In this document: in pieces, positions 40,403 to 64,000 of the stretch | How positions within the stretch are numbered: position 1 is the first letter of the stretch | Layout: each line of letters starts with the position of its first letter | DNA from: Yuukianura sp. NJ FZ-2021 | Lineage: Eukaryota | Length of the DNA stretch: 64,000 nucleotides | Assembly: GCA_046563655.1 (NCBI GenBank) | Contig: CM102289.1 | Span: 2,418,001-2,482,000 of the forward strand | Reading direction: 5' to 3' | Notes under the pieces: generated by a model | The model's database searches: none | The model's input: only the letters and a program-made list of their open reading frames with translations | Told to the model about the DNA's origin: nothing | Translations under genes and position numbers: made by a program

Positions 40403-41680
40403 TTTACAATTCTTCTTCTCACGCTAGATGGAATTGGAGCATACCACATGAAGTTTAGTGGCAAAAACGTCCTTGTCACTTTTTCATACTAATAAGAACT
40501 ATAATTAACTTTAAAATAAACAGTCTAAGCTGTTCCGAAGAAATCAATTTTTCGTCCAGTTGCTTGTTTGTACATGTACAGTGGAAAAACAAATTAGGAA
40601 ATAACTAGCTTTGACCTCTTTTTTAGAGTAAATAAATGATGCAATTAGGTTTGACATATGCCGTCCTGGAAACCTATTTTGTACAAAATCGAACAAATAC
40701 GTAACTAATTTTACCGCTTGAGTTAATGCTTTACATAAACGTTAATCATTAACTCATTTTGGCGCTAGGTTAACAGATATTTTTGAAATAAATATTCAAT
40801 TGCACTACTGGTCGCGAAAATAACTGATATAAGCTCGTTATAACTCCCAATAAATAACAATAAAATTGATATAAAAAGTAGGTAAGTACAGTAATGTACC
40901 TATCTTGGAAACCACGCTATCCCTTTCTCTCCTTTCTCTTTTACTGCGAATTTCCAATGAGTGGGGGGAAGGCGGGAAGAGAACTCAAAACTCAACTCTA
41001 TGCACGAGTTTTTCACATTACTGGAAGTTTTACAGTAACCGTGGGAGGAGTGAAATGAGAAGAGCCAATCAGAGCAAGTTTCCACGATAGGTCCAATACT
41101 AGGTTTACCGCTTTTTCTCGCATATCGCTTCAATTTCAAAGTTAATTGGTCTTCCACTCGAGTGAGTTCTCAACAAGGCTGCACTAAATATTCAACACAT
41201 ACAATAAACGAAGTTGGAAGTTTTGCATCTTTTTGATGTTCGAAATGACCTTAAGTAATAAATGCTCATGATCATTATGCCGTATGTAGCTGAGTCTCTC
41301 TCAAGAGGTTTTAAACATATGCATAACCTCTTTGTCTTTCCATCGTTTACTCCTTTCCGAGCACTTAAACTTTGCAGTTCGAACAAGGAAAAGTAAATAG
41401 CCAAAATTCACACAATCATGTTAATTATAAACTATTTTTTACATTGACGAACATATCTGTTTTCGTCAGTGTACTATCTCTTCGTTTGTATTTAAAAATT
41501 TTCTTGAAATCGCATATTCTGCAAGCCTAGCGTAACCGTCAAAAGCACAAATATTTAGTAAGTAGAGGTTTAGGTAAACTATTTCGGCAACATTCTTTTC
41601 TTTTGTAATACGATTCCTTTCCACCTCCTAACTGTTCAAAATATATTATTTTGACCAAAATTTTGTAGCTCTCCGTTAAC

Positions 41681-43283
41681 ATGATATCAAACTACACTCT
41701 TTCGAATTACATAAATGTCTTGAAGTTTATTTCATTGTTTACTTGGAGTTGCTTCAAAGTAAAGTACTCCACTTCAGCACCTCAAATTGTACCAACCAGG
41801 AACTCATTTGGCCATTTTTCAGTAAAAGACATGGTCAGCATTTGCGGAATGTCAAGTTTAGGTTTAATAATGTACAAGCCTGCAGTCAATGCTATCGCTG
41901 AGCAGGACAGAAACCTCATTCTCTTCGTCGGTGTCCATCTGGAATTATATGTTATTTTTATAATTTATAAAACAATTTACATACTGACCATATCGTCTTC
42001 AATGAAATTCTTCAATATTTTCTTCAAACTCAATTCACAAGAGCGTAAGAGCGTGCTTAACGATATTACTAAAAATTATTCCAGACATTTAAATTTTCCT
42101 TTCTAATGAATAATTTATTTATGAATTTAAAGAAACTACCTTGAAAGTAAGCAAAGATGGACTGGAAGTAACTTCAAAAATGATTCACTGGGGAATTGTA
42201 TCTACAGTTTTGGTTGGATTCTTTTACATATTGATGTTACTTGTGAGTGATCAACCAATCGGAAGAAGTGCAACAGCACTCGTAAACCTGTTCGTGTCAT
42301 ACCCGCACAACAGCATCGGAATGTATCTCATCAAATTTGGGTGGGCAGCATGGGTGTTCTATGGCTCCGCAGACTGTTCCCTCTCTGGTGTTTTGTATGT
42401 TATTTTATTTATTCTTTACATAAACTCTACAACGATCACTGTTACAGCAATCAGGTATACCCAAAATCATAAAACTGAAATACACATACAGTGAGTGCAA
42501 CGAAAACCTGCACACCTCAAAAAAGTTTTCGTTTATTTTGCTAAATTGTGGTAGGAAATGTTTTCATGAAAACCGCCGAAATGATAGTTTTGCAACAGAA
42601 TCAAGGTTGTCAGCGGAAAAGTTACGTTTTCGCCTCCATAATTTTAATTGTTGCCAGGGAAACAAACTTGGGGTGTGCAGGTTTTCGTCGCGCTCACTGT
42701 ATATATTGCCCTGATAACACTAAACTATACATGTACTGACAGCTGAAGCAGACTTTCTGAATTGGATATTTTTTTTAGCAAACTTTGCTGTGCCGATGAC
42801 GATGGAATACAAAATGACGATGAGGTCTTAACCAAAGCAAAAGCTGCGCAACTCTATAATACCAGGGCTGTATTAGCCAAAATGTTCAACTACCAGTTCG
42901 CATTTATCTTGGGCTACATACAAAATATACTTGCATGCACAATCATTTACATGACATTTATCGTTATAAAATTCGGCACAACAAATGTCATATCCACCCT
43001 GTTCTTTACTTTAGGAGCAGCTACTTCCGTGGTGTGCGACTGGTTCATGATAAAATGTCTGGTTGAGTTGAGGTCAGCTTCAGTTGACGCAATTGCAACC
43101 ATGCGAGTCTATGCTGATCGCTGCTGCACCAATGAACCAGTAGTTGGGCTGACATGGCAAGGAATCCGTCCATTGGACATTTGGGTTGGCGACATATTTG
43201 TGGTGGAAAATTCAGAATTCATTCTGCTGTTATTTGGTGACATAATCATTGGAAACATAATCTACCTGTTGCTAACATTTTGA
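41681..43283 (+). CDS. Gustatory/odorant receptor superfamily-like 7TM protein (3 exons)
   Basis: Exons 41681-42043, 42133-42454 and 42779-43283 are phase-compatible. Many TM segments and a C-terminal IRPLDIWVGDIFVVE...IIGNIIYLLLTF resembling GR TM7. Confidence 0.7.
42489..42699. mobile_element. Tc1/mariner-type MITE, copy B (GR intron 2)
   Basis: TA|CAGTGAG...CTCACTG|TA with ~28-bp TIRs. Homologous to 23080-23292. Confidence 0.85.
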
Positions 43284-43759
43284 GAAGTTTTACATTGAGG
43301 AGATGAGAATGGATAGAGACATCGATGCATAGAAAATTTGAAGTGAACATTTGAAGTTCACTTTGAATTTACTTAATATTACCAAGTATATCAACTTAAC
43401 TTAATAGAATTATAGCTACTTTGATTTTTTTTTCTTATTCTCAATTTTTTGTGCAATTTATATTCATATTTATTAATTCCTTTTGTTCGAGTCATTTAGT
43501 CATTTGGCATGATTTTCTGCGGAAAGAAGTCTATCAAATTCAGCTAATAAAATCAAAAGCCAATTAATTACTTATCTCATTCTATCGCTTTTTTTTTTAA
43601 TTTTCGGTCCCCGCTCACAATTTACCAAGCAAATTTCAATTCATCTAAAGTACGATTTGCCCTAAAATTTTATGTTGTAACAACACACAAAAAATTTTCA
43701 CAAAAGCATTTTCAAGTTAATAAGTACGGATTCATAGTAAATCAACACCTAACGGAAGT

Positions 43760-46700
43760 TTACGAATTAGCGTCGAGTAGATTCGTCAAATGGTCCGAAA
43801 GACTTTGAACAGTTCTGTTCTCTTGAAGCGATTCCAAAGTTAAAACTGCTTTAGTATTTTCGAGAGGAACCTGCAGGTAATTTCGCAATTCCATTGTGGA
43901 GAGAGAGTCAACACCCCATTCCGAAATATTTTGGTGTGGGAGAATTGTTACATTTGAAGATAGTTGCAGCGTTCGCTTCAACACGCACTCCACGTAAAGC
44001 TGAACTTTCTCTCGAAGTCCCGCCCCTTTAGCATTTTTGATTTCATGCAACAGTTTATCTGCTTCTGCTCGGTTCTTCAACCATTCATTATTCTTGCTTT
44101 GTGGCTCGGGCACTAGTTCGTCAAGGAACCTTCCTAGTTTAACATATTGCTTCAACAGGTCCAAATCAGTAATATATGCTACTGAAACTTGTGGCAAATG
44201 ATGCCCAAGAATGTATTCTAAAGAAGAAATTCCTTGTTCTGGAGTAAATGGTTGAATACCCTGTGCTCCCTCGAGTCCAAATTTGAGTTGTGCCGCTGCT
44301 CCAACATCAGCCCATGCACCCCAGTTGATTGTTGTAGCTGGCAGTCCAAGTCCAATGCGGTATTGAGCAAGTGCATCCAGAAATTGGTTCGCAGCAGCAT
44401 GATTACTTTGTCCAATTTGTCCGAAAACAGACGCTATAGATGAAAATAGTACAAAGTAATCCAATGGATCATTCCGGGTTAGAAGATGGAAGTACCAAGC
44501 CCCAAATACTTTCGATGCAAGCGTAAGCTCGTATTTTTCCCAAGTTTGGGCCATCAAACTACCGTCCGAGATCGTTCCAGCAGCGTAAAATATTCCTCGC
44601 AATGGTGGGAAAGATTTTCGGATCCACTCGAGTAGTTGTACGCAGTTATCGTACTGGCTGACATCGGTCTGGAAGACCATCACCGAACTGCCAGCTTGGT
44701 TCCACTTGTCAATTCGATTCTGTGCTTCAGCCGAAGGAGGGTTCCTGCCTACAAGAACAACGAAGACAGCACCAGAGCTTAACATCCATTGGGCCACTTC
44801 CATTCCAACGCCACCTAATCCTCCTGTGATGACATAAGTGCCTCTTGCATCAAAGAAATGATGCCGCCAGGTCATTATTCCAGTATTTTTGTCCAGCGTC
44901 CAATGAGGTATTTTTAGCACAACCTTCCCAATGTGCTTTGCTTCTTGGAAATAGTGAAAGGCTTCTCGAATGTTAGCCAATGGAAATGTTGTATGCGGCA
45001 ATATTGTTAAACTACCCGACTCGTATCCCCGCTCAATGGCACCTAGCAAAGACGGCAGTCTTTCTGGGTCTGAATATTCCAAATCGCCAAGATCGACTGT
45101 AAAATATTTTACATCCGGCCTCAGAATTTTCACTTCCTCGGGCTTCCAAATATTAACTTTTCCAATTTCAACAAAACATGCTCCTTTTCCGCACACCGCC
45201 AAAGAAGTTTCCTTGTATCCAGGTCCGGTGAGTGAGTTAAGTACAATTGTCATCCCATCATGTTTGCAATCCTTCGAGATTTGTTTCCCAAAATCTGTGT
45301 TTCTTGAATTATAGACGTGTTCAATACCAAGTGAACGTAGGTATGATCGCTTCCGTCTACTCCCAGCCGTGGCATAAACTTCAGCTCCGAAAAGTTTCAC
45401 AATCTGAATTGCTGCTAAACCAACACCTCCTGTAGCAACATGGATGAGTACGCGATCTTTTGCCGAAATTTGTGCAAGGCTAACAAGGCAATAATACGCA
45501 GTGACGAATACACTGGGGATTGTGCATGCCGCTTCAAAGGTCATGTTCTTCGGTTTACGAATAAGGGCATACTTAGAGGTCACAGCATGACTCCCAACAC
45601 CACCAAGGAACCCGAACCCCGTTACTTCATTTCCGATGTCAAATTCATTCACTCCTGCGCCCTTTGAAACAACGGTTCCTGAAATATCTACTCCTATGAA
45701 CATTTCACGACCACCAGCATTTTCAAACCCTTCGGGCTGCAAAATAGCAAAGATGTCACGAAAGTTAATGGCCGTGGCTCTAACTTCTACCACCACTGTG
45801 TCAAATGTAGGTTCGGGTACTGGTCTAGGAATAAAGTCCATGTCTGCCATTGTTTTCTTGGATGGATTCAGAAATGTGATGCTTGGTGCTTGAGGCAATT
45901 CTATTTTGTTTTCCAGTATTTGATGCGGAACTAAGCGTTTTACATACCGATTCCCATCTCTGAAGGCGAGAAATACTTCACCGCCTTGCTTAGTCATCTT
46001 CCAAAGCTGGTGGACGATTTCTTCTATTTCAGCTTCATATGCAAGTGTACTAGGATCACTGTCAACAATTAATACGGAGAATTCTGGATTTTCATTATGG
46101 AATGATATCATTGCACCACAGATTGTGGCGGCCATTGGGTTTGAAGCCGGTTCTTCAAACTCTCCCATTGAATTTACGCCTGCTGTCACTACACAGGTCC
46201 GCGGTACTGTCATCCTGTTTCTGCTTGAACTAACCATACCTTGCCATAGATGAAGAAAGCTCTCGCACAACAATTTCTGAGTAAGTTTTACGTCAGACGT
46301 TGTGCAATTGTCTGTACAAAAATACAACACTCCTTCCAAGTTGACTTTTGGGTCTAAAACCTTGTCCAAACGTAGTCGTAGATCAGAGAGAGCAAGATCG
46401 CTTTCAGATTCGTTTTGACTTTGAAATTGCACTAATTCGACGCTCCTTTTCAGGACTTTAAGCTTTTCGATTACACCTCGACAAACGTGCCCTCCATCAT
46501 CAAAGACGATCCATACTGGATCAGCGGCAGCATTTACATATTTTGTAAGCTGTACCTTCCGAGCACACATACCGCCAAGGGTACCGTCAAATGCCTGGAA
46601 CGATTCTGGGTTGGCGTATCCCGTTTCTCGCAACAAACCTTCCCACTTGGTAATATTCCAGATGGGACTTATTTGTCGATCATCTTCAAATCGCCACCAA

Positions 46701-49700
46701 CCATCCAAAAATCCAAAGGAAAGCGAAACAAACGGGCAGTCCTTAAATTGCTCAGTAAAAATCAACGTACCTCCCATACGTAGAAGCGTGTTCAGATTTC
46801 CCAGCGTTTCGCGTAAGTTGCGTGTTGCATGCAGCACTTGGAATCCCAAAATGAAGTCAAAGTAGTTGGGCGAGAAATGTTGTTGTAATGGATCATCTTC
46901 AATATTGAAAACCTCAAAGTATAAATTATCGTTTTCTCCAAACCGATTTCTGGCATTGTTAACAAAATGGGCGGAAATGTCGGTAAATGTGTATTCAAAA
47001 TTTGTTCCAATTTCTTTCAACTTCTTTAGTATATGAGCCGTTGTGGCTCCCGTTCCAGCCCCAACCTCCAACAGACGTACCTTCTGTCCTGGATGTAAAC
47101 AACCTAGTTGGGCAATTCGGCTTGCAATTTCTGCCACGACAACCTGATCCAGCAAAACTAGACATTTGGCTGAAAAATACAGAGGCAAAAATATTAGTAG
47201 GTAAATAAAAAAAACTTACTACAAAGTCGTTGATACAAAAAAGCTAAGACTCACCTTGCGAGTACACTTTATCGGCACCAACATCATTCTTTGGAAAAAG
47301 CAGTTCTAATGGCGACATTTTTCCTGAAAAAACTTCTGTCATGTGACCAATCACTCGCTTAGCGTATCCGATAAGTGGATCTTCTCTAAAAACCGTCTCA
47401 GCTGCTGTAACCAGTTGATCAATATTTGTTGTGATATTCTCCGGAGATGGAAGAGGTTTCACCACTTTATACTCCCCATCAATAATACTAACATATCCTT
47501 CAGCCCGTAATCTGTTCAAGCAGGATTCCAAAAATTTTGTTTTTTGTAGATGAAGTGGTAGTTGGCGACGAACAATTTCTAGGTTAACTGGCATTCCAAC
47601 ACAAAGTTCCCAGCCACACTGGATAATGCTGCGTACCAAACCCAAAGTAAATGCATGGTTAATCTTTCTGTATTCCACGCCCAAGTGATTTTCATAAGCT
47701 TGAATGGTACGAATTGCTTCAGCCAACTCTCCTTCAGCCGCCTGAAATGTGACATCTGGAGTGGCAGTGTCCAATCGTACCGCTGTTTCGGTAACGCCAG
47801 CTGATCGCCTCCAAACATTAACGTAAAGTTCTGGCAATTTGTGGTCATACGCTCTCAAAGATCTTAGAAAGGAATGTTCAGTCGTTGGCAGTACTTCCAA
47901 ACCTTCCAAACATGCTAGCGGCAACCCAGCGTCGTTAAGAAGAACTATTTCCGTTGCATCTGGATCAGCTTTATTTCCAACATCGTGGATTGTTGTGTAT
48001 GCGTAGACTACCTCGGTGCAAGGGTGTGCTGCGAACCATGTAAACTTTTTGATTGACACCGGAAGCCGCAATGACTGGCTACAAGCATTTCCAGTGTCAC
48101 TCCACATTTCGGATAAAACGTAAGTCTGAATCATAAAATCCAGAACAATTGGATGGCAAACGTACTCAGCGTCACGTGTCTGGAGCAGCGTTTGTGTCAT
48201 GAGTTCCGCAGCAGAACTTGATTGACGACTCCATGCTGCTTTAACGGATTGAAACTGCGATCCAAACTGGATCCCAAGTTCAAATATAGCTGAGTATGCG
48301 GAAGAAATTTTATCGGGACTTTTTTGGCCCAGTTGGGTTTTGAGGCAAACAATATCCACTTGATTCAAGGTCTCCTTGTTAGTAATTGTAGCCAATCGTA
48401 GCGTAGCAGAAGCGTGCCGTTTCCATTTTTCATGCTGAATTTCCTTGTATATTCCAACTGTGTATGCGGGAGACTGTTCAGCATCAGACGAGCTTGGAGT
48501 TACAAGGGTTTGAATATTGGCAGGAGACTCTAGTTGAAGCGCAGCTTCTACGCGCATATCTTCGACGGTAATTGGAACCATATGTCTTTTAAAGTGCAGG
48601 ATTTCCCTTCCACTTCCCATAAACATTTCCAAATATGCAGCAGCTGGAAGAATAGTTTTACATGCGACACGATGGTCGGCTAGATATGCAAGTTGCGGCG
48701 AAGATGAAGAAATCGTGTTGTAGAAGATCGATTGATTTGTCGCCATCGGCATCTTTTGTCCTAGGAGTGGATGAACAATTGACTTCTGATTTAGCCCTAG
48801 TAGTGGAAGCGGATTAATATCGGTGTCATTTTCATCGTCTATATACCAGTAGTTTTGACGCTGAAACGGATATTTCGGTAGTTGTGATGCAACTTCTTTG
48901 GATAAACCTTCGTACCACCCAGAAGTGTCGATGTCCACACCTGAATTGAATAGCTGACAGCAAGACGCCATTATCGAGTAAATCGGATCTTCGCTATTGC
49001 GCATGGATGGACAAAATATACAATCGCGTGATTCTTGAGCAAAGTTTCCCGTCGCTAACGAAATGAGAATCGGTTTCGGCCCAATTTCAACAAAACAGCG
49101 AATACCTTCCCGCCTCAGCTTCTTAATGGCGGATTGGAATTGGACTGTACTTCGGAGATGGTGGCCAAAGTAACTTGGAGTAAAATCGTCTGCGTTGTTC
49201 ATTGTTTCACCTGACGTACCCGACACAAATATTGAGCTCGAGGGCGCGACAGAAGTGAATTTTGCAACAAAATTCTCAAATTGTCCTCGAATTTTTTCCA
49301 TCTCTCGAGAATGGAAGGCGCTAGAAGCTGATATAGGTTGGAACTGAATGCCGAGACGATGGCAAAACTCTTTAAACTCCTCAATCGTCCCACTTTCTGC
49401 GGACACTATGACTTCTTCCAAGGAATTTACAGCTGCAATGTCAACCCAGGTTGAAGAAGAATACCCGTAGTTCTCAATTGCCGATCTTACATCTGTTTCG
49501 GACGCTCTCAAAGCCAGCATGGAACCTCCCGAACATGTCGCTATCAAGCGACTGCGCTCAGCCACAATTTGGAATGCATCCGACAGTGTGTATACACCAG
49601 ACGCTAGAGTTGCAGCGAATTCTCCAATGCTGTGTCCTAGGACGACGTTAGGTTCTACCCCAAGCGAATTCCATAGCTTGAGTAAGGAATACTGGAAACA

Positions 49701-52700
49701 GAATAGTACCGGTTGGGAGTAAATTGTTCTGCTCAATAGTTCCTCGTTTGCAATGACGTTGTGCAGCGATTCATTAAATTTTTCTTTGAAATAAAAATTA
49801 CATTCTTCAAAGGCATTTCGAAAGGCTGGGAAGTTGTTAAGCTTTGTTCCCATGTTGGCGTACTGACAACCTTGTCCAGTAAAAAGGAATGCCACTTTTG
49901 GTCTCGCTGACAAATTTATTGGGCAGTTCCACGAATATTCCTCCATTTTTGCTGCCAAATCTTCTTTGTTTGTGGCTACAAATGACGCCCGATAGGGTAA
50001 CTTCGCACGGCAATTGTTCGTTCCAAAGGCGATTGATTCCAGACTGTGGTTCGTCGTTTTAACGAAAACAACGTATTTCTTAATCAACTCTTTTAGGGCT
50101 TCGGCAGATTTGGCAGAGATTTGAATCAATTGCGGTTTTACGTCAGCGACTGCTGGAAAGCCGGTTTTGGTTGGTACGTGTTGTTGAATTAAAACATGTA
50201 CAACAGTCCCGCTCATGCCAAATGAATTCACTCCTGCAATTTTGACACCATCATTCCAGTCAGTCAACACCAGAGGAACCTTCGCTGGAATCGAATCCAA
50301 CTGAAGCTTTGGGTTTAGTGTTTTCAAATTCCGATTTGGCGCAATCATATTATGCTTCATGCAGAGAATGACCTTGATCACACCTGAAATTTAAATGATA
50401 TTAGTTAGCCTACTAGTGATCGGAATACGAAACGATACCTTCATAATATATAATTACGTTAGGATAAAATATAAAATAAAGTGCATTAATTAATTCAAAT
50501 TTAAATCCACTTTGCCGTTTTTGAAACTTACCTGCGATTCCTGCGCATGACTCTGTATGCCCAATGACGGATTTCACTGAACCAATCATCAATGGTTGCG
50601 TTCTGTTTTCCGAATATACGTTCCTAATTGCCTCAACTTCAATTGGATCTTAAATTAGGAAATAAACTTTTGAACTACAATAAGGTGAGACATCAGGCCA
50701 ATACAGACATCTGTAAACACAGACATCTGTAAATACAGACATCTGTCAATTACAGACAATCTGTAAACATAACGCTAAAAAACGCTTTGTAGACATAGGA
50801 ACGACTGAGAATTGAGAATTAACACATTACGTAATCATACAAAACCCGAACGGGTGGATTCTTTACGATTGAAATTTTGCACAACTCATTCTAACTTGCG
50901 AATCACTGCGTTGGATTTCAAAGTTGTCGATCATTCGCGAGTTTTTCTAAATGGGCATGGCGAAGTGGATGAGCCACTTCTGATACTCAATTCTTAGGTC
51001 GCCCCAACTCTTAGTGACGTAATACGAAATTGTAAATTGTAAACACGAAATTTGTGAACTCTGACCCAATCTTAAGGTGCATCGCCGGTATAATTGGTTA
51101 CGCGCTCAAAAAACTACGACCACACTTTCCGCATTAGCATACGCTGCTCCACTTCGCAAAAGTTTGCGATCTGACGAATCTTCAACCGTTTCGCCGTTAA
51201 AAGCAAAAGAAGACAGAAATCCGAGGCTTTCCGAAACGTCTTCCAGAAAACCTATGTTTTCTGGGCGAAGGGTCCTGTTTTCGTCAGATCGCAGAGTTTT
51301 GGGTTGTGGAGCAGCGTACGCTAATACGAAAAGTGTGGTCGTAGTTTTTTGAGCGCCTAACCAGTCATACAGGCGATGCACCTTAAGTCTTACGGGAAAT
51401 TGCGTATAAGCGAATCTGTAAATCGCCTCATTAAAGAATAAAAAATAAAATTTTAGATTTAAAATAATTAATTTGAACATTCACCTCCAGCCTGCGTTCC
51501 GGTTCCATGTGCTTCGACGTAGCTAACGTCATAAGGTTTTACTGCAGCATTTGTCAGAGCACTACGAATTACACGCTCTTGCCCATGTGGATTCGGCGTT
51601 CCGAAACTAGTACTTTGACCGTCATTGCTCAAAGCTGAACCCCGAATAATCGCGAGAATATTGTCACCATGTTCCATGGCGTCAGCGTACCGCTTCAATA
51701 CAACAACTCCACAACCCTCAGCTCTGACAAACCCATCAGCCGCTAAAGTAGTACGATATAAATTATTTTTGTAATTAAAGATTCAAGTGGCTGACCAAAG
51801 CTGGAAATTAAATCATACTTACATTCATCAAATACCCTGCAGCGGTTAGTTTTCGACATAACCACAGAGACAGTTTTGCCGGAAAATGGACCTCCTTTGG
51901 GATTCAGAATGAGGTTGACTCCGCTTGCAATAGCGATGGAAGACTCGCGTTGTCGTAGGCTTACGCATGCGAAGTGTAAAGCACTCAAAGAGGATGAGCA
52001 GCCACTAAAAACAAGTTCAATACACAAGTTCAAGAAGTCAATCCAGTCCCACTTCTATTCGTGAATTGGATTCTGGTCTAGCCTGGATCCAACTTTAAGT
52101 TGTCACAACATCACTTATTGAGTTCTGTACTAAGAGACAGCAATTTATTGAGTATGAATTGGTTATTAATTACCTTTCGATTGCGACATTCGGACCGTGG
52201 AGAGCCAGAAAATACGAAACCCTGGCAGCAATTGCGCTGAAGGCGTTTCCAATGTACTGATAGTGAATCTCTTTTTCCAACAGTTTTTCAGAGGGAATCA
52301 TAGCACCGTAGTCTTGAGTCCAAATTCCAGTAAATACTCCAGTATCGGTTTGCGCAAGTGAGAGAGGGTTAATCCCCGCATCTTCTAGACCCTCCCATGT
52401 CACCTCCAAAAGAAGCCGTTGCTGGGGATCCATGAAAGCAGCCTCTCCAGGGCTGATCCCAAAAAACGACGCATCGAATTCATCAATTGGGCACTTCAAA
52501 AAACCACACTCGAGCTTATTGGTTTCCCCGGACAAAGGTCTTCCATAGCGAAACGCTGCTGGACGCCCTTCCGGAAATGGAGTGATGCATTCCTCCGATG
52601 AGGACAAAATTTGCCACAATTCTTCTGGCGAATTTGCTTTGGGAAACCTACAGCTCATCCCAATTACGGCAATTGCATGGTCGGTGTTGAAATGCCCGGA

Positions 52701-52718
52701 GGAATTGATTGGCGACAT
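43760..52718 (-). CDS. Single-module highly reducing type I polyketide synthase KS-AT-DH-cMT-ER-KR-ACP (2546 aa, 6 coding exons)
   Basis: Exons 52718-52174, 52004-51823, 51742-51485, 50648-50532, 50383-47255 and 47169-43760 total 7641 nt in frame. [114 protein letters not shown]. Confidence 0.95.
50703..50768. repeat. Minisatellite of four ~16-bp units (ACAGACATCTGTAAAC) in PKS intron 3
   Basis: Four adjacent near-identical units, each with a quasi-palindromic core ACAGA-CA-TCTGT. Confidence 0.85.
51076..51382. mobile_element. MITE with ~105-bp TIRs and TTAA flanks in PKS intron 3 (Kolobok- or PIF/Harbinger-like)
   Basis: TTAA|GGTGCATCGCC...GGCGATGCACC|TTAA, with arms extending to GATCTGACGAA / TTCGTCAGATC. 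Confidence 0.85.
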
Positions 52719-53004
52719 TTCCTGTTTAACGTAAAGTAGTAATTCGAATGATTTTTAGGTTTAAATAGTTACCAACTCATATTAGCACATGATTAGGTTC
52801 AAATAATAACTGCTTACTTCGAGCCTGGGCTAAAAACTGCTGAATTCCTCTAATGCTCTAGCAAACTGTTACGGTGTATACAGTTGATGGTATTTCGTTT
52901 TGTGTTTGTTAGCGTATCAGTGCAGATTTACGGTACTGAGGTTTGAATAAGTTTTACGAGCAAATTGAATTTGAAAATATTCCAACTACAGAAACCACAC
53001 CAGT

Positions 53005-53011
53005 ATTTATA
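53005..53011 (-). promoter_or_regulatory. Candidate TATA box of the PKS gene
   Basis: Minus-strand TATAAAT about 190 bp upstream of a GTAAGC donor (~52817) that would splice a 5' UTR exon to the acceptor just before ATG 52718. Confidence 0.35.
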
Positions 53012-53145
53012 ATGAAAATTGTTCTCAGTAAAAAACTGAAACGAAGGCATTTCTTTTGGAAATTATTTTTAACTCAATTTGCAAAAGTTAATTACTGATT
53101 AAGAAAGAGGGGAATGAAGAGGGTTTATGTTAGACAGTCCTTCAT

Positions 53146-54060
53146 TAATTCTCAGTTTATGACCAACAATATTCCCATGTGAAAACCGTAAGATTACTTA
53201 AATTGACTAGTTTTGTAACGTTGAAAATCGTTTCCTTAATAATTAATTAGAATACAGAACAATCGTCACAAAAAAGTATTCACCTTTCCTCGTCAGATTT
53301 TGCGATAAATTTAATTTACCAAAAGAAATGTTTAAAATATAAAAAACATTAATTCTGGTTTTATGACCAACAATTCTTCCTGTGAAAACAAATTAGGATT
53401 CCTTACACATTGCTCAGTTTTGTAGCGTTGAAATTTTTTTTCTCAAAAAATAATTAGAACAGAGAACATGTACCTATTATAAATCAGTATTCACCTTTCC
53501 TTGTCAGATTCTGCGATAAATTTACCAAAAAAAAAAATTTTAAATATAAAAAACATTAATTCTGGGTTTATGACCAACAATTTTCCCGTGTGAAAAGAGT
53601 GTAGAACACCTTACATTGCTCAGTTTTGTAACGTTGAAACCTTTTTCCTAAGGAATAATTATAATAGAGAAAATGCATTTTATAATAGAGAAAATGCATT
53701 ATAAATAAGTATTCACCTTTCCTCGTCAGATTCTGCGATAAATTTGCCAAAAAAATTTTTAAATATAAAAAACATTAATTCTGGGTTTATGACCAACAAT
53801 TTTCCCTTGTGAAAAGAGTGTACTTCGCCTCCCCTAATGTGCTCTTATGGAGAAAAAGTACATAAGGCCCCATTTCGGGGTTTCTATTCCCTAAACTTTT
53901 GAAATCATAAAGATACCTGACAATGCTCAGTTTTGTAACTTTGTAAATTTTTTTCTTAATGAATAATTAGAATAGACAAAATGTATTATAAATAAGTATT
54001 CACCTTTCCTCGTCAGATTCTGCGACAAATTTAAAAAAGAAATGTGTAAAGTATAAAAAA
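53146..54060. repeat. Tandem array of four ~205-220-bp units upstream of the PKS
   Basis: TTAATTCT...TTATGACCAACAA recurs at ~53146, 53349, 53556 and 53775, and AGTATTCACCTTTCCTCGTCAGATT recurs four times. Unit 4 carries a ~90-bp insertion. Confidence 0.9.
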
Positions 54061-55053
54061 TGAAAAATAAATTTGGTCTACGTTAATAACACTACTAATA
54101 TTACTTATTTTTATTTGGATACTTGAAATTTGGCAACTTCTAAACAGTAGAAAAACAACTCTCCAAAAAAATAGACTATAATTATGTTAGAATTTAATCA
54201 AAAAATGCATGCCCAGAGTACCACTTTAGTGTGCAGATGACTGATCTATGAAAGAAAATACATAATTTACATAATCTGGAAAAAAAATTTACATAAGGCA
54301 ATTTGCAAATTGCAATACCTTACACACATTGCGAGATTTTGTTTTAGACTATTATCACGCTATTATTTTTTTATTGCTATTTGCTACGTTTTTTGAATTT
54401 TGTACTAAATCATTACTTTTCAAAACCTCCACTTTACATGGTTTTGTAATATTTGCCCCTTTTGGAAACATTTCCTGAGCACTTAACTTCAATTCGAAAA
54501 CTATGTCTGATAAGAAAGCATATAATTGTCTATGGTCGTTCGTTGTCGCTTTGGAAAACCAGAATTACGTAGTTAAGTGGCACAAGAGAAGTTTAGATTT
54601 CGATGAATAGTAAATTATCGCATTGGAAAAGTGGCAGCTTTGACACTTCATTAACTTCAGAAACGAGCTTGTACTAGAGGATGGTGAATAAAGTTGTAAA
54701 TATTTTTCAAAATGTATTTAAATTAAACTGTAAAAATCAAGATTAAATTTCTACTACGTTTCACAGTAAACTGGGCACTTTATCAGCCTTTACAACCTTG
54801 GCAGCTTTAATTGCTCAGATAAGGAAATTGTCACGGCGAATTAAGACTGAGCTTATAAAGCCAGGTTTTTTTATGAGGGAAAATCTGACTTGTGTTGGTA
54901 AGTTCGCGTATTGAACTTATAACAGTGACATTCAAACTTATATAACTATGTATAACGTAAAATATAATATAAAAATATGTTTTTTAGCTATATATAAAAT
55001 AATACAGTTTGTACTTATTCACATTTGAGTTGGTTTCTATTTAAGCAAAAAGT

Positions 55054-56452
55054 ATGTTAACAGCTCTCCAGTACAGGGTGTTCGTAGATTGTATTCGCTT
55101 CTATTGTCATTGGGGTCAACTTCCGTTCAAATGCACGGGAAAAGAGTTTGAGCTCGTTGAAAATAGTTGGAAATTTAGGTGTATCGTGGCTTGGTTCAAA
55201 GGATTCTGGGTAGTCCAAACCTATGTTGTTGTACTGCTCATCACCTACGAACATTATATAATGGGGGAATACGGGCTATTTCTGTTAAGCTCTGTTTTGG
55301 TCCTTGCGTGTACTGTTAGCGTCGCAAGTAAGTTCAGCGTTGAAACAAATTGGCAAGAATTCCTCGAAATCGGCAATAACGTGCGGACCCTCAATATGAA
55401 ACTTGGTAAACAACTACGCATTTTTTCTTAATTTAAAGGCAAGTTCCGGGTTTTCCAGGGCCAGCTGATGCAATGCGGAACGACAACCACAGCGCAAAGT
55501 GGTTATGCATATTAAAATATTGTTATTTATTGGATAACATTAGGTTCTGTAAACGTTTCAGGAGAACGATTCATGGACGGTGAACATTTTGCTGTGAATA
55601 CACTGCAAGAACGTGTTTTTCTTATACTCATGACTGCAGTTATCGCGAGTCCAGTTGTAGCGAGTTTCCAATGCATGTATATTATAATGAGTAGTGCGAA
55701 ATCACTTGCAGTCAAAATCACAGTAACGCTAAATATCGCTGTTGGGTTTGCAATTCTGGAGTTCGATGCCACCGCGACTGTACTACTGTTGTCGACGTCA
55801 ATTCAAACCATTAACGTGTGGCTCACATACTGCAGGCAAGTCATTGCTTTAGTTTTAATTATATACGTTAAATAAAATTGAATTGAATTGAATAAATATA
55901 AAATATAATATAATTTAAGTATATGATATAAACTCATTCGATTTTAGTTGTTGCAGTATTTCGTGGCCAGCAACAAACAACACATTTGAGGCATTCGATA
56001 ACAGTTTCAGCGTTTACCAAAGTGTATTCCTCCTCAACCAATTGTACAACAAGGCGTTTGGTTGTGGGTTTATACCAGTATTCAAACTAGTATTGGTAGT
56101 TACATTCAACATTAGCGTGTTTGCAGTTATCACTTTACGTGCAACACTACCAACGGTCATTGTCATGACTTTGGTCATGTACATGATGTTTGCTTTACTT
56201 TACATTGTGACTGGGGCTGTCCTTATGTCGCAAGTATACTCAACCTCAATGTCATTCTTCACTAACTGGAGGAGGCGCATTCCAGAATTTGGTTCAAAGG
56301 AGGAGAAAAGTTTGGCGGCAAAAAGAATGCGTTCCATGTCAACATTGCGGGCTCAAGTGGGTGGATTTTACCATATGGAGGCAAATGCCAAGCTAACGTT
56401 GTTTGACAACATTACGCGCGGAGTTGCGTTTATGCTAATTACTTTTAAGTAG
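55054..56452 (+). CDS. Gustatory receptor-like 7TM protein (3 exons, probable GC-AG second intron)
   Basis: Hydrophobic exons 55054-55405, 55562-55835 and ~55948-56452. C-terminal MSTLRAQVGGFYHME...LTLFDNITRGVAFMLITFK resembles GR TM7. Confidence 0.7.
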
Positions 56453-57317
56453 CACACTCCTCTGCAATAAAATATAAATCCCCGTAGATATAGAATAGAA
56501 AGCTTTAAATCATACAAGTGTACTATAGCATCTGATAACTAGACAGACAGGCACATATTACTGTAGGGAACTTGAACGTTAGAATTTTGGCGTTTTTGAG
56601 CTAATATTTCGGCAGTTTGTATGAAACTTTCGATAGGTACAACCTAGCGGTTAAGCGTCTGCTTACAAATTTCTTGGTACAGTAACATCCACGGTAGCTG
56701 TGTAGTTGGAATATAGTGGTGTACCATTTAAATTTCTATTCTATTGTGTGTGTGTCATATCAATTTCAAACTTGAAACTTAAACGGAATACACTCAATTA
56801 GTCTTCTTCAACATGTCGTAGACATGCGTCTCCGGAAGAGTAAAACCATTGAAAAATTAAAAGTTTAATTAAGCAATGCAAAACCATACTCACAATTAGC
56901 CAAGACGCAGTACGTATTGATCGATTTAATTTATTCACACCATATGTGCTGCCGGAAATCGCATGTCTGTATAAAATAAGAAATCTCACCATCAAACGGC
57001 GATCCGCAAAGCATGCGACTGAGATCCGCAAAGCTTGCTTTCATCCGCAGAATAATCTGACTATTCAGGGTATTAGTGTAACACACGAAAGAGCGGGCCT
57101 GAGCTGTAAACAATTTATTTCACAAATCACAAACACATTTTGCCAACTCTGAACTTTTACCAAAACAAAAGAATTCCTAAAGGTCAAGAAGCATAAAACT
57201 ACTAACATCAGAAGTAAGTGTACAAGTAAATTAGCATTTAATGCTTAACTATCTCTAGTCTAACTGAATTCTTATACCTATGAACAGCATCTTCAGCATC
57301 GAATCCAGTAGTCCACA

Positions 57318-58771
57318 ATGGCACAGCAGACGTTAAATACGGAGAGAGTGGAGGAAATATTGTCAGTGTCGGAGCCAGATACTGAGAACTACTTTCTAAC
57401 CCCACCTGTGGCGCCATCAAGTCAACAGCAAAAAGTATTGTCTGAATTCTCCACGCCGAAGTCATCTGGAATTAAACGGCTTCAAGAGCTTAAAACACAA
57501 CGCAACAGCCCAGCCCTTGCCGTACCAGCGTCACCATTGATGAAGCGTTTGGGTTTCGGTACAGGTATGTTTTAATCTGATAATAAAAACAAAGTAGAGT
57601 TTGTAATTTGCTTTTGATTTGATTTTAGGCGTTGGAGTTTATCTACTCGAACGGTCGCCAATGAAAACCGGGGAGATTCGATCACCGTGGGCAATAAAAA
57701 AGATTAACAAAGGCAATCTCCCTTCGAATGCCTTTAAGGAGCGACTGGAATACGAGGCTTCCATTCTCAAACAACTAAATCATCCTGTTAGTTCTTCACC
57801 TTTAAACATCTCCATTTCATTATCAAAACACTTGCCAAAACTTCTAAGGTTAAAAAAAACAATGAACTTGTTTGATTTTTGGAATTCCAGAATATTGTTG
57901 GATATCGTGGGTTTTCGAATCCACATAATGCCCAACCACTCCTTGCAATGGAGAGTGCCTCGTCTTGCTTGAGCGATTTGATTGAGGCTCGTGTCGACTC
58001 AGAGCTGTCACCGGTGCCTTTTCCGGCCAAGTCGATTGAAAAGGTAGCTCTTGACCTTGCCAATGCCTTAGACTACCTCCACGAGGAGAAGCGGATGATT
58101 CACGGGGACTTGAAGAGCGGAAATGTACTTGTGTTCGGAGATTTCCAAATCATCAAGCTGTGTGATTTCGGTGTTGCTCAAGAGTTGAGGTCAGATGGGA
58201 CTATAAACGGAGATGCATATGTTGGGACCCAGATCTGGAATCCCATGGAGGTCATTCTTTTCCAGAATGGTGAGTAGTAAGCGATATTTTCAGTGATAAC
58301 AGTATCGCAGGCGTAAGGCGTTGTTTGACTGATGACAATTTACACTGTAATTGCACAGGTACACCGAATTACCCAATTACAACGAAGGCAGACATTTACT
58401 CTTTTGGACTCACAGTGTTCGAAATGCTGGCTCTCCAGCAACCGCATATTCCAAATGAAGACGAGTTGGATTCTTCTCAATCTCAATCCGAATCGGATAT
58501 AAGCTTCGACGAATCAGCTTACGACGAACTGCTCAACCAGCGACTCGGTTTGACACAATTCACGCGCAAATACTTGAATTAATCAGCGCATATGTTGAAA
58601 ATCCAAACATTCTTTCCCATAGGTACGCGTCCGCCTTTGCCAGACTTTGAATTTGATTCTTCCTACAACAAGATCCTGGAGACATTTTACTGTTGCACTG
58701 AAGAAAACCCAACTAAACGTCCAACTGCAGAAGACGTCATTGCACTGCTCACCCTCATTACACTCAATTGA
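57318..58771 (+). CDS. PBK: PDZ-binding kinase / TOPK
   Basis: Family signature [24 protein letters not shown]...SPWAIKK, plus HPNIVGYR, IHGDLKSGNVL, KLCDFGV, YVGT and ADIYSFGL. Five exons. Confidence 0.92.
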
Positions 58772-62365: not shown

Positions 62366-63774
62366 TTAGAACATTTGTAGCAGCATAATAGTGTTGGTTA
62401 CGACAACTGAAAGAAATGTGAGAATAGTTGAAGAAGAAATGCCGTACAATTTCCCACTCCAGTACTGCATAGGCGTGAAACCTTGCAGAATGGCAAGTTG
62501 TCTCATTTCAAGTGCGTCACTCCCAACGTTGTTTGCAATTACTTGTTGCAACGATTCTTTCAACGTCACACCCAAAGTGTGAACTCTGCCCATGAGAATC
62601 ACCGCAGTGTAAAATCTAAGGGAAGGAACCAATATGGCTAATGCAAGAGGAGTTAACACCCCGCTCAGTATTTGGTTTGAAAATTTAGCAAATGCGTACA
62701 GTACACCGCACATGCTTGTACCCGCAGCTACGCTAAAGAAGAGAACAAAATTTGAGAAAATGGCGTTGAAGGAGGTAACAAGCTTTTGAATTCTTCGGTA
62801 CAAGTACAACATGCTCTTAAGGTTCAACATGCTCCTGAAGTTTGATGCGTTGTTGAATCTGGTTGAAATTCAATTTGTGGGGTAGTTTCATCCATTTGAT
62901 TTGCAAATGCGGTCATTGTCTGCAGACATTTTTCAATTCTTAAACAGAAAGTCAAGAATGCAATGTCACATACCCCAGAAGAAATCCAGATCAATTCAAC
63001 GAACAGAAACGTTTCTAATGACGTCAGAATGTAGATGGCGCTGGATGTAACTGAAGGTTCCATATGTTGTAACCCAAATAGCCAAAACGAATGCCCAACT
63101 ACCATTAAGCCTTCTGGTTGTAAAACCAAAATCAAAATGGGCAACAAGTATGTGATCAAGTTGAGTACGTTAAATCTCCGTAAAGTTATTCTTGCACTTG
63201 CCGAAAAGTCGCTCTCAACAGCGTCAGATTCAGCTACACCTTAAAATTTATTTATAAACGTAATTGCATTAATCCAATTTTTAATTTTAATAAAATTTCA
63301 ACCAAAAAAAAGTTCAAATTTTGGTAGCAAAATGGTCATACCTGAGCTCCACTTTTTGAATTCTTGTTCCTGAGGGTGCCAGTTGTTTAGAAATGTGACA
63401 AGCTTACTTAAATATCTTCTCAGTGTTAGAATCCACACAATAAAAGCTACCAACATTATTGCGAAGATAATAGAAACTACATTTATGTGTGGATGGCTAT
63501 CTTCCGATAGGTAGCTTGGAAGAAACCGCCAAAAAAAGAGCAAACATCGTACAATAATGTAGCAGTGGACGACAAACGCAAAAGTTGTCCAGAATTTGCT
63601 CTGACTCTGCCGCACTCCGATGAATACTTTTTCCGTTTTCTCAGTTTCTGGTAAAGTGGTCCATGCCTGTTGTTCATGCTTTGGCGGAGCGTAGATAAAT
63701 TCCAGTGGTAAAATTCCCGCCAATCGTTGTAAACTCATAATGAAAATACTATGCTCCACTGCTGATTTATCCAT
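62366..63774 (-). pseudogene. Gustatory receptor-like 7TM gene with an apparent frameshift near 62830-62880
   Basis: Exon 63774-63342 (LQRLAGILPLEF...) splices to 63239. That frame stops at 62824, while TM5-TM7 (...SGKLYGISSSTILTFLSVVVTNTIMLLQMF) continue in another frame. I found no phase-compatible GT-AG intron to bridge them. Confidence 0.6.
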
Positions 63775-64000
63775 GTTAAAATGGCAAATTTCAAAAATTC
63801 AAATATTTCAAAAGTTTAAACTTTTAAACAAAAGATGGCAAAATACTTTTTACGAATTCAATTTCGAAACGTTTGTATTTTTAGTTTTAGAACTAAACGT
63901 CGTGTGTAGTTGGTGCTTAAAGTGCAAATGTGAGCAGCATTTTTTTGCGGCTTTCTAATAAAGTGAATGCTTTGTCTACAGTAACAAAAGACTTCTGCAA

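What the first reader, a model, noticed from the sequence alone, without database searches (positions are those of the whole stretch)
43760..52718. Intact, intron-bearing, bacterial-style reducing PKS module in an animal genome
Seen: a complete 2546-aa KS-AT-DH-cMT-ER-KR-ACP frame with intact KS (Cys, His, His), AT (Ser), DH (His, Asp), SAM-binding and ACP-Ser motifs, five GT-AG introns, and clearly animal neighbours (PBK, PRIM2, GR-like genes). Established: animal FAS has a degenerate pseudo-MT and a C-terminal thioesterase, whereas this protein has an intact-looking MT and no TE. Inference: linker and domain motifs ([37 protein letters not shown]...GGTLIF...[24 protein letters not shown]) read like cyanobacterial/myxobacterial cis-AT modules. 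This suggests a horizontally acquired module domesticated as an iterative synthase for methyl-branched, reduced polyketides (cuticular lipid, pheromone or defence compound). GHSIG and xAFH suggest malonyl-CoA extension.
Basis: partly seen in the sequence, partly recalled or inferred. Interest (0 to 1): 0.85.

Follow-up and report, generated by a model that had tools for sequence, protein, structure and literature searches.

The report
Springtail-type polyketide synthase gene
An intact, intron-containing gene for a large bacteria-like polyketide-building enzyme really does sit among ordinary animal genes, but it belongs to an enzyme family already reported from springtails, so it is a new member of a known kind rather than a new discovery.

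Summary
On the minus strand, six exons joined by five GT-AG introns give a 2546-aa KS-AT-DH-cMT-ER-KR-ACP synthase with no release domain. It lies between animal genes, and independently assembled contigs bridge both ends.

It is not a fresh or unique bacterial transfer. In maximum-likelihood trees its KS and its MT-ER region fall with full support in a clade whose named members are all springtail proteins: 11 of 28 rows, Orchesella dallaii and Folsomia candida. The neighbouring esterase also matches springtails best among proteins of normal length. The gene's GC3 lies within the range of neighbouring exons. Unnamed relatives only 38-45% identical appear to share intron positions.

Springtail type I PKSs were published as horizontal-transfer candidates in 2017 (PMC5490193). 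Among solved structures the nearest are bacterial cis-AT modules (CurL, MAS), not animal FAS or AFPK.

It most likely works as a stand-alone iterative, highly reducing, SAM-methylating synthase that uses malonyl-CoA and is released in trans. Expression and product are unknown.

Verdict: new member of a known kind, moderate-to-low interest.

The parts
52174..52718 (-). Exon 1 (start ATG at 52718-52716); KS N-terminal part, residues 1-181 plus 2 nt
   Evidence: gene model; Pfam ketoacyl-synt E 4e-47; junction colinear with homologues
52005..52173 (-). Intron 1, 169 nt, GT..AG, GC 35%
51823..52004 (-). Exon 2; holds the KS active-site Cys in the motif ESGCSSS
51743..51822 (-). Intron 2, 80 nt, GT..AG, GC 28%
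51485..51742 (-). Exon 3; KS up to HGTGTQAG (first catalytic His)
50649..51484 (-). Intron 3, 836 nt, GT..AG. Most of it is a high-copy repeat insertion that is absent from other contigs of the same organism.
   Evidence: In one search, contigs of runs X2 and X4 skip 50681->51442 (760 nt, 8 letters between), and bins 50717-51918 have depth 9,000-23,000 against about 300 elsewhere.
51071..51387 (.). Inverted repeat inside intron 3: arms 51071-51178 and 51280-51387, 108 nt, 89% complementary. Foldback or MITE-like element.
50532..50648 (-). Exon 4; KS second catalytic His ([11 protein letters not shown])
50384..50531 (-). Intron 4, 148 nt, GT..AG, GC 26%
47255..50383 (-). Exon 5 (3129 nt): end of KS, KS-AT linker, AT, DH and the DH-MT linker
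48990..49889 (-). AT domain (protein residues about 533-832); GHSIGE active site and SAFH motif
   Evidence: Pfam Acyl_transf_1 E 2e-48; motifs. Reading xAFH as malonyl-specific is recalled knowledge.
47874..48773 (-). DH domain (residues about 905-1204); His in [13 protein letters not shown], Asp in LDFMIQ
   Evidence: Pfam PKS_DH_N and PS-DH
47170..47254 (-). Intron 5, 85 nt, GT..AG, phase 1, just before the MT domain. The site appears to be shared with unnamed relatives.
   Evidence: ORFs P0241 and P0242 start at equivalent residue 1415. P0130 carries a 37-aa F/I/L/K/Y-rich insert at exactly this junction.
43760..47169 (-). Exon 6 (3410 nt including stop 43760-43762): cMT, pseudo-KR, ER, KR, ACP
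46610..47092 (-). C-methyltransferase domain (residues about 1437-1597); [14 protein letters not shown] and GGTLIFTE all present
   Evidence: Pfam Methyltransf_12 E 2e-19; PDB matches to DisA, CurJ, PsoF, PksCT and LovB MT domains
44915..45799 (-). ER domain (residues about 1868-2162); [11 protein letters not shown]
   Evidence: Pfam ADH_N, ADH_zinc_N, ADH_zinc_N_2; CurK ER 229 bits
44306..44842 (-). KR catalytic domain (residues about 2187-2365); TGGLGGVG; His at the canonical Tyr position (SNHAAAN)
   Evidence: Pfam KR E 5e-58
43787..43978 (-). ACP (residues about 2475-2538) with GVDSL serine; the protein ends 8 residues later
   Evidence: Pfam PP-binding E 1.8e-4, 22.1 bits against cut-off 20.8
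43469..43601 (-). Candidate polyadenylation signals: ATTAAA 159 nt and AATAAA 286 nt after the stop
   Evidence: Pattern match only; no transcript data

Best explanation
This is a functional-looking nuclear gene of an arthropod, probably a springtail. It encodes a stand-alone type I polyketide synthase with the domain order KS-AT-DH-cMT-ER-KR-ACP.

It belongs to the bacteria-like PKS family that is expanded in springtails. Within that family it sits in a subclade that so far has no named members. Whatever transfer founded the family is old: the gene has host-like composition and five spliceosomal introns, and at least some intron sites appear to be shared with relatives only 38-45% identical.

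Inferred mechanism:
- The single module works iteratively.
- The AT loads malonyl units and the KS extends the chain.
- The cMT adds alpha-methyl branches from SAM in some cycles.
- KR (a His-type variant), DH and ER reduce the chain.
- The finished methyl-branched, largely saturated acyl chain stays on the ACP until a separate enzyme removes it, because there is no TE or reductase domain.

Shown here: gene structure, domains, motifs, linkage to animal DNA, and clade membership. Inferred: iteration, substrate, product type and release in trans.
For: - Gene model: six exons, five GT-AG introns, and all junctions colinear with homologues.
- Domains and catalytic motifs.
- Animal neighbours.
- Linkage: an 11,346-nt contig of run X4 lies from 41063 to 52011 and bridges the 3' end. 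Contigs of X1, X2 and X4 bridge the 5' end.
- KS tree, 44 rows, careful: the window plus 4 Orchesella dallaii and 2 unnamed rows form a clade with 100/100 support. The 73-row quick tree gives the same clade at SH-aLRT 100.
- MT-ER tree, 63 rows: a 28-row clade (support 100) holds the window, 11 named rows that are all springtail, and 16 unnamed rows.
- Clade-specific motifs. ESGCSSS occurs in the window and in 2 of the 15 relatives that cover this part, both Orchesella; the other 13 have D/Q-T-A/T-C. Arg after AFHS occurs in 5 of 5 clade rows and 0 of 12 others.
- Neighbouring esterase: the best hits of single-domain length are Orchesella dallaii (55% identity, 139 bits) and Folsomia candida (52%, 126 bits).
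- Composition: GC3 is 39.5%, against 32-53% in ten neighbouring exons; introns are 26-40% GC.
- Intron sharing: 5 of 24 N-terminally truncated relatives start 4-11 residues after the window's intron sites, and P0130 has an insert at junction 5.
- No second PKS and no reductase-domain remnant in the window.
- Published background: Folsomia candida has 30 type I PKS clusters, and most genes in its 36 predicted biosynthetic clusters (of which these are 30) were flagged as HGT (PMC5490193, passages). It has a single PPTase (PMC10531068, passage).
Against: - There is no expression evidence of any kind.
- The organism is inferred, not identified. The esterase margin over insects is small (55% and 52% against up to about 51% at similar coverage).
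- The KR carries His where the textbook catalytic Tyr sits. The DH motif has Cys or Ala where Gly is usual. Activity of both is assumed because relatives share such variants (15 of 18 aligned relatives have the His).
- Of the 13 best-supported differences between the window and run contigs inside the CDS, 8 change the amino acid and 5 do not. That is only weak evidence of constraint, from a small and biased sample.
- No protein at or above 50% identity over the MT-ER region exists among the 1.84 billion representatives, so orthology to any studied gene cannot be claimed.
- The trees are unrooted. They contain only sequences fished with this protein, so the direction and source of any transfer are not shown.
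Confidence: 0.8

Rival explanations
1. A recent transfer of a bacterial cis-AT module that is specific to this genome. On this view the module entered this lineage on its own and was then domesticated.
For: The closest solved structures are bacterial: CurL 282 bits, MAS 341 bits, and only bacterial chains among the 38 that exon 1 matches at E <= 1e-25. KS identity to cyanobacterial modules (47-48%) is close to that to Orchesella (50-51%). An uninterrupted metagenome ORF, L001, has the same architecture at 34% identity.
Against: The KS and the MT-ER region nest with 100% support among springtail PKSs, not among bacterial rows. The clade has its own motif changes and a long stem branch (0.34-0.66). 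The gene has five spliceosomal introns, GC3 like its neighbours and apparently shared intron sites. No bacterial protein exceeds 37% identity over the whole MT-ER region.
Confidence: 0.05
2. The family is an old eukaryotic or animal PKS lineage inherited vertically, with no bacterial transfer. Its bacterial look reflects slow evolution or loss in other animals.
For: Intron sites appear shared across deep paralogues. The clade is large and diverse, with 28 rows at 29-45% identity. PMC10764717 reports that mollusc PKS genes also have few introns concentrated at the N-terminus, and that one mollusc clade has an active MT (passages). My trees cannot be rooted.
Against: Every named member is a springtail (11 of 11). 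Published HGT screens flag springtail PKSs as foreign (PMC5490193; PMC10764717). Animal FAS and AFPK structures score far lower than bacterial ones. Vertebrate and sea-urchin PKSs have other architectures (KS-AT-DH-KR-ACP and KS-AT-DH-ER-KR-ACP-TE; PMC4604110).
Confidence: 0.15
3. The gene is an unexpressed or decaying copy of an expanded family, intact only by chance.
For: No RNA evidence is available. Springtail genomes hold many paralogues (30 clusters in Folsomia), so redundancy is likely. 8 of the 13 best-supported CDS differences are non-synonymous. Many relatives in the databases are fragments.
Against: The reading frame is 7641 nt without a stop, and every catalytic motif and all five splice sites are intact. 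The one well-supported indel inside the CDS is 3 nt, so it keeps the frame. Fragmentary relatives are explained by prokaryote-style ORF calling across introns.
Confidence: 0.1
4. Assembly artefact: a bacterial or symbiont contig wrongly joined to animal DNA.
For: GC is 41-44% in the gene against 33-37% in the flanks.
Against: The introns have canonical splice sites and are AT-rich. GC3 is no higher than in neighbouring exons. Independently assembled contigs from runs of two studies cover the gene, and one contig runs from the flank at 41063 through the gene to 52011. Depth in the gene matches the flanks in run X4, about 25 in both.
Confidence: 0.01

Closest known systems
Springtail type I PKSs: Orchesella dallaii CAL8085358.1, CAL8085190.1, CAL8085139.1, CAL8085367.1 and others; Folsomia candida XP_035711528.1 ('highly reducing polyketide synthase lcsB-like') and OXA45421.1
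   Same: Same clade in the KS and MT-ER trees. Same core order KS-AT-DH-MT-ER-KR-ACP. They share the ESGCSSS, GHTESC and AFHSR motifs. Several members, such as P0275, P0263, P0273 and P0282, also end right after the ACP.
   Different: Only 29-36% identical overall, with KS at 49-51%. The window sits in a sister subclade with five unnamed proteins. Eight relatives, including P0201, P0212 and P0256, carry a C-terminal extension of about 430 aa. In P0201 and P0212 this includes a thioester-reductase family hit (PF07993). The window lacks it.
Bacterial cis-AT PKS modules and single-module KS-AT-DH-cMT-ER-KR-ACP synthases (CurL and CurJ/CurK of curacin, an Okeania sp. protein P0214, mycocerosic acid synthase)
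   Same: These are the best matches among solved structures. P0214 has the same domain order and length (2550 aa). They share the His-type KR. MAS is likewise an iterative reducing synthase.
   Different: 30-34% identity overall. They have DTACSSS rather than ESGCSSS and AFHSP rather than AFHSR. They are intronless (L001). They fall on the other side of a 100%-supported split. MAS takes its methyl branches from methylmalonyl-CoA and has no cMT (recalled).
Fungal highly reducing PKSs of LovF/LovB type
   Same: The domain order KS-AT-DH-cMT-ER-KR-ACP is the same. They use iteration, SAM-derived methyl branches and release by a separate enzyme (LovD or LovG; recalled). This is the best functional analogy.
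   Different: Sequence similarity is lower than to bacterial PKSs. LovB scores 175 bits, mostly over the MT, against 341 for MAS. LovB is absent from the exon 1 and exon 5 lists at E <= 1e-25.
Animal FAS and FAS-like PKSs (AFPK, e.g. EcPKS1/2)
   Same: Single-module megasynthases encoded in animal genomes, with a shared overall fold of the reducing region.
   Different: FAS has an inactive pseudo-MT and a TE, and its genes are intron-dense (PMC10764717). The window has an intact MT, no TE and five introns. Scores are 190-205 bits (FAS) and 142-162 (EcPKS1/2) against 341 for MAS. None appears at E <= 1e-25 for the KS, AT or DH parts.
Deuterostome animal PKSs (medaka/vertebrate PKS, sea-urchin PKS-2)
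   Same: Animal-encoded type I PKSs that are not FAS.
   Different: Their architectures are KS-AT-DH-KR-ACP and KS-AT-DH-ER-KR-ACP-TE (PMC4604110, passages), with no cMT. No sequence of this group was available to me, so relatedness was not tested.

Membership tests
Type I highly reducing, single-module (iterative-type) PKS | KS-AT-DH-(cMT)-ER-KR-ACP on one polypeptide | tested here: met
   Pfam domain order across exons 1, 5 and 6; colinear with full-length homologues
Type I highly reducing, single-module (iterative-type) PKS | Catalytic residues of every domain present | tested here: inconclusive
   The KS C/H/H, AT S, DH H/D, MT motifs, ER and KR NADPH sites and ACP S are present. The KR has His at the canonical Tyr position and the DH Gly is replaced. 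Both variants occur in relatives, but no activity was assayed.
Type I highly reducing, single-module (iterative-type) PKS | Acts alone and repeatedly, not as part of an assembly line | not testable with these tools
   No other PKS sequence lies in the 64-kb window. Iteration itself needs biochemistry.
Springtail bacteria-like type I PKS family | KS groups with named springtail PKSs in a supported clade | tested here: met
   7-row clade with 4 Orchesella dallaii rows, UFBoot 100 / SH-aLRT 100, in 44 rows; the same clade in 73 rows
Springtail bacteria-like type I PKS family | The reducing region (MT-psiKR-ER) groups with the same family | tested here: met
   28-row clade, SH-aLRT 100; all 11 named rows are Orchesella or Folsomia
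Springtail bacteria-like type I PKS family | The host is a springtail | tested here: inconclusive
   The neighbouring esterase's best single-domain-length hits are Orchesella dallaii and Folsomia candida, and nearly all of the 120 listed hits are Pancrustacea. No marker gene or genome was available.
Animal FAS / AFPK | Inactive pseudo-MT, C-terminal TE (FAS), intron-dense gene, KS closer to FAS than to PKS | tested here: not met
   MT motifs are intact. There is no TE. The gene has five introns. FAS and AFPK structures score well below bacterial PKSs.
Deuterostome-type animal PKS | Architecture KS-AT-DH-KR-ACP or KS-AT-DH-ER-KR-ACP-TE | tested here: not met
   The window has a cMT and an ER and no TE. 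Architectures are taken from PMC4604110.
Deuterostome-type animal PKS | Phylogenetic grouping of the KS | not tested
   No sequence of this group was returned by any search, so none could be put in a tree.
Bacterial gene (contaminant or very recent transfer) | Uninterrupted ORF, bacterial flanks, donor-like composition | tested here: not met
   Five introns, animal flanks bridged by independent contigs, and GC3 like the neighbours

The most novel reading that the evidence does not exclude
The window's subclade consists of this gene plus five unnamed relatives that appear to share its intron sites. The window protein is ACP-terminated and, like the two relatives that could be scored (P0241, P0101), has a His-type KR. 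This subclade could be a distinct, old arthropod lineage of SAM-methylating reducing synthases. If so, it would supply methyl-branched chains for springtail-specific cuticular or defensive chemistry. That would be a route to methyl branches in an arthropod that does not go through FAS and methylmalonyl-CoA. Its His-for-Tyr ketoreductase would then be a catalytically competent variant tied to C-methylating modules in bacteria and animals alike.
Probability: 0.2. Interest if true: 0.6.

Novelty: new member of a known kind. Interest (0 to 1): 0.3.

Why it matters
Springtails have unusual chemistry, including sigillins, pyridopyrazines and odd cuticular hydrocarbons (PMC10825826, passages). Their many PKS genes have been counted but, in my three literature searches (listings only), none appears to have been characterised.

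This gene is a clean, complete, compact example: 7.6 kb of CDS with five short introns. It is ready for heterologous expression and comes from a subclade with no named member.

It also gives sequence-level hints about how long such bacteria-like genes have lived in animal genomes, through shared intron sites and host-like composition. It does not change the picture that animals, and soil arthropods in particular, carry such genes.

Tried and rejected
- Whole genome of the window: none is held.
- First homologue search with exon 5, longer proteins: swamped by multi-module actinobacterial PKSs whose scores add up over modules. It was uninformative for kinship.
- Sequencing runs: no RNA holder is listed, so nothing can be said on expression.
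- Rfam scan of the window: 0 matches. It gave no help with taxonomy.
- ESM Atlas with the PRIM2 exon: best score 0.82, unrelated clusters. Discarded.
- Earlier findings of this scan: none for this genome, and none relevant by words.
- Metagenome loci: 79 loci. The best, L001, is an uninterrupted ORF at 34% identity. The contigs that encode the closest relatives (P0130, P0101, P0241, P0242) were not among them, so their introns could not be read in DNA.
- Search for a reductase-domain remnant or an N-terminal extension like Orchesella's in the window: only chance hits, E >= 0.12.
- Synonymous against non-synonymous count: only 13 differences were visible (5 synonymous, 8 non-synonymous). The sample is too few and too biased to use.
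- Pfam at E <= 1 on the ORFs that flank the PKS (41669-43283 and 55045-56452, plus strand): no credible family. No biosynthetic partner was identified. The carboxylesterase at 28.4-29.5 kb and the alpha/beta hydrolase at 35.9-37.0 kb are only speculative release enzymes.
- Literature on a His-type KR: one paper was listed and not read. I cannot say whether the variant has been described.
- Considered and rejected: that the His makes the KR dead. 15 of 18 aligned relatives share it, including full reducing synthases that need a working KR.

Full report
**Observation**

The gene is there as described. Stop-to-stop frames on the minus strand between 43760 and 52754 hold PKS sequence. Joining them at canonical splice sites gives six exons: 52718-52174, 52004-51823, 51742-51485, 50648-50532, 50383-47255 and 47169-43760. 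The five GT..AG introns are 169, 80, 836, 148 and 85 nt. The CDS is 7641 nt, encoding 2546 aa.

Pfam finds KS, the KS-AT linker, AT, DH, a class I methyltransferase, an ER (ADH_N/ADH_zinc_N), KR and a carrier domain, in that order. Nothing follows the carrier domain.

In an alignment with 18 relatives the protein is colinear across all five junctions.

- The KR has His at the position of the canonical catalytic Tyr (S+13, 'SNHAAAN').
- The DH motif reads [10 protein letters not shown].

**Setting**

Neighbouring frames match rhodopsin-type GPCRs, a carboxylesterase, a TPR/HEPN gene, an alpha/beta hydrolase, a protein kinase, the large subunit of DNA primase and, weakly, a 7tm_7 chemoreceptor.

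The higher GC of the gene (41-44% against 33-37%) is a coding effect. GC3 is 39.5%, within the 32-53% of ten neighbouring exons. The introns are 26-40% GC.

Five public runs from two studies hold parts of the stretch, and none is RNA. When the runs were laid on 40500-58500:
- One 11,346-nt contig of run X4 lies from 41063 to 52011, so it runs from the flank through almost the whole gene.
- Other contigs cross the 5' end.
- That X4 contig differs at about 8% of positions in the CDS (550 of 6712).
- It lacks 760 nt of intron 3.

The missing piece is a high-copy repeat, with depth 9,000-23,000 against about 300, and it has 108-nt inverted arms. Contamination or misassembly is therefore excluded for practical purposes.

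**Kinship: searches**

Word-indexed searches were dominated by multi-module bacterial PKSs whose scores add up over modules. They did turn up two Orchesella dallaii (springtail) proteins.

An exhaustive HMMER search of 1.84 billion representatives with the MT-psiKR-ER region gave 42,428 hits. Nothing reached 50% identity over the whole region. The best single-stretch hits were unnamed fragments at 42-45%.

Look-ups of 30 of these proteins gave names for 11, all springtail:
- Eight Orchesella dallaii and one Folsomia candida protein were named directly.
- One more shares a 90% cluster with a Folsomia candida protein.
- Together with the two Orchesella hits named, this gives 11 named rows in the clade described below.

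**Kinship: trees and motifs**

- In a careful KS tree of 44 rows, the window groups with four Orchesella and two unnamed rows at 100/100. It is sister to the other six at 100/99. A 73-row quick tree agrees.
- In a 63-row tree of the MT-ER region, a 100%-supported split separates 28 rows from 35 rows. The 28 are the window, the 11 named springtail rows and 16 unnamed rows. Among the 35, the only named member is cyanobacterial (Okeania).
- Inside the 28, the window sits in a 6-row subclade (support 99) with unnamed proteins only. All springtail-named rows are in the sister subclade.
- Motif changes mark the clade. ESGCSSS replaces DTACSSS. GHTESC is shared. Arg follows AFHS in 5 of 5 clade rows against 0 of 12 others.

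**Host**

The carboxylesterase next door finds almost only pancrustacean proteins. Among hits of normal single-domain length the best two are Orchesella dallaii (55% identity, 139 bits) and Folsomia candida (52%, 126 bits), just ahead of grasshoppers. Taken with the PKS clade, this makes a springtail or close hexapod relative likely, but it is not proven.

**Age of the gene in eukaryotes**

Many unnamed relatives are fragments called as prokaryote-style ORFs on longer contigs. Of 24 that are N-terminally truncated, five begin 4-11 residues after one of the window's intron sites:
- P0101 at equivalent residue 333 and P0130 at 339, for intron 3 at 328/329.
- P0304 at 372, for intron 4 at 367/368.
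- P0241 and P0242 at 1415, for intron 5 at 1410/1411.

By my own arithmetic about 0.4 such coincidences would be expected by chance, although these proteins are not independent of one another.

These relatives are only 38-45% identical to the window. If the sites are truly shared, the introns are old, and so is the gene's residence in eukaryotic genomes.

**What it resembles**

Among solved structures:
- The KS-C/AT/DH part matches CurL best (282 bits), then DEBS modules (about 190-210) and MAS (182). No animal FAS, AFPK or LovB chain reaches E <= 1e-25.
- The KS N-terminal exon matches only bacterial chains at that threshold.
- The reducing region matches MAS (341 bits), a spinosyn module (266) and CurK ER (229). 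These are ahead of Drosophila, human and pig FAS (190-205), LovB (175), the AFPKs EcPKS1/2 (162 and 142) and Dictyostelium Pks16 (148).

**What is known**

- Faddeeva-Vakhrusheva et al. 2017 (PMC5490193; passages read) reported 36 biosynthetic clusters in Folsomia candida. Thirty were type I PKS, and most genes in the 36 clusters were flagged as horizontally transferred.
- Lin et al. 2024 (PMC10764717; passages read) cite a Folsomia PKS as horizontally acquired and suggest the same for other arthropod PKSs. They note that mollusc PKS genes have few introns, concentrated at the N-terminus. The same pattern is seen here, where four of the five introns lie in the KS.
- Hojo et al. 2015 (PMC4604110; passages) give the different architectures of vertebrate and sea-urchin PKSs.
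- Three searches for functional work on springtail PKSs (listings, with passages of PMC13389473 and PMC10825826) found none.

**Mechanism (inferred)**

One module with no partner in 64 kb must iterate, or else make a very short product.
- GHSIGE with xAFH suggests malonyl-CoA (recalled rule).
- The cMT has the SAM-binding motif and the His/Glu pair seen in CurJ-type MTs, so methyl branches would come from SAM.
- KR, DH and ER would reduce the chain fully or in part.

The His-type KR is probably active. 15 of 18 aligned relatives carry it, including complete reducing synthases.

Across the 385 fetched PKS proteins:
- KRs downstream of a cMT have His in 85 of 102 cases.
- KRs without a cMT have Tyr in 201 of 225 cases.

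That sample is biased and relatedness is not controlled. In the only two proteins that carry both module types, the MT module has His and the other module has Tyr.

There is no TE or reductase domain, and no remnant of one. By contrast, eight relatives have a C-terminal extension of about 430 aa; in P0201 and P0212 it carries a thioester-reductase family hit, and JGI names P0250 'thioester reductase-like'. Release must therefore be in trans, as for fungal LovF and LovB (recalled).

**Verdict**

The find is a new member of a published family rather than a new phenomenon.

What remains open:
- expression
- the product
- the root of the family
- the exact host

Interest 0.3.

Noticed in passing
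window 44306-44842 (KR), protein residue about 2336; also P0001-P0385: His replaces the canonical catalytic Tyr of the KR (S+13). Across the 385 fetched PKS proteins, KRs that follow a C-methyltransferase have His in 85 of 102 cases, and KRs without one have Tyr in 201 of 225. In the only 2 proteins with both module types, the MT module has His and the other has Tyr. The sample is biased and relatedness is not controlled. I could not establish whether this is described in print.
   Followed up: partly
window 50682-51441 (inside intron 3); arms 51071-51178 and 51280-51387: A roughly 760-nt high-copy repeat with 108-nt inverted arms is inserted in intron 3 of the window's haplotype. It is absent from contigs of runs X2 and X4, so it looks like a recent, polymorphic foldback or MITE-like insertion.
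   Followed up: partly
window 41063-52011: A contig of run X4 covers the gene at about 8% nucleotide divergence (550 of 6712 in the CDS part). Other contigs of the same sample are identical or about 2% different. Very divergent haplotypes or mixed populations or species are therefore present in the sample.
   Followed up: no
P0130 (unnamed JGI protein), at the site equivalent to window intron 5: There is a 37-residue F/I/L/K/Y-rich insert beginning 'GK' exactly at the junction. It looks like an in-frame intron read through by a prokaryote-style gene caller, at the same site and phase as the window's intron 5.
   Followed up: partly
relatives P0241, P0130, P0243, P0101, P0304, P0269, P0314, P0374: Eight ORFs of relatives end at positions equivalent to window residues 2353-2385, just after the KR. 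This may mark an intron between KR and ACP that the window gene does not have.
   Followed up: no
window 41669-43283 (+) and 55045-56452 (+): Runs of open frames of 96-178 aa lie directly on both sides of the PKS with no Pfam family at E <= 1. Bins 42303-42903 and 56727-57327 have 8- to 40-fold excess depth, so repeats are present there.
   Followed up: partly
window 31611-33138 (+): Two long frames (221 and 281 aa) carry a DZIP3-like HEPN domain (6.5e-5, below Pfam's cut-off) and TPR repeats. This is an unusual neighbour for an arthropod locus.
   Followed up: no
window 5845-6255 (-), 20755-22365 (-), 62366-63798 (-), 13884-14375 (+): Several rhodopsin-type GPCR frames, a weak 7tm_7 chemoreceptor frame and a zf-RVT retroelement remnant share the window.
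   Followed up: no
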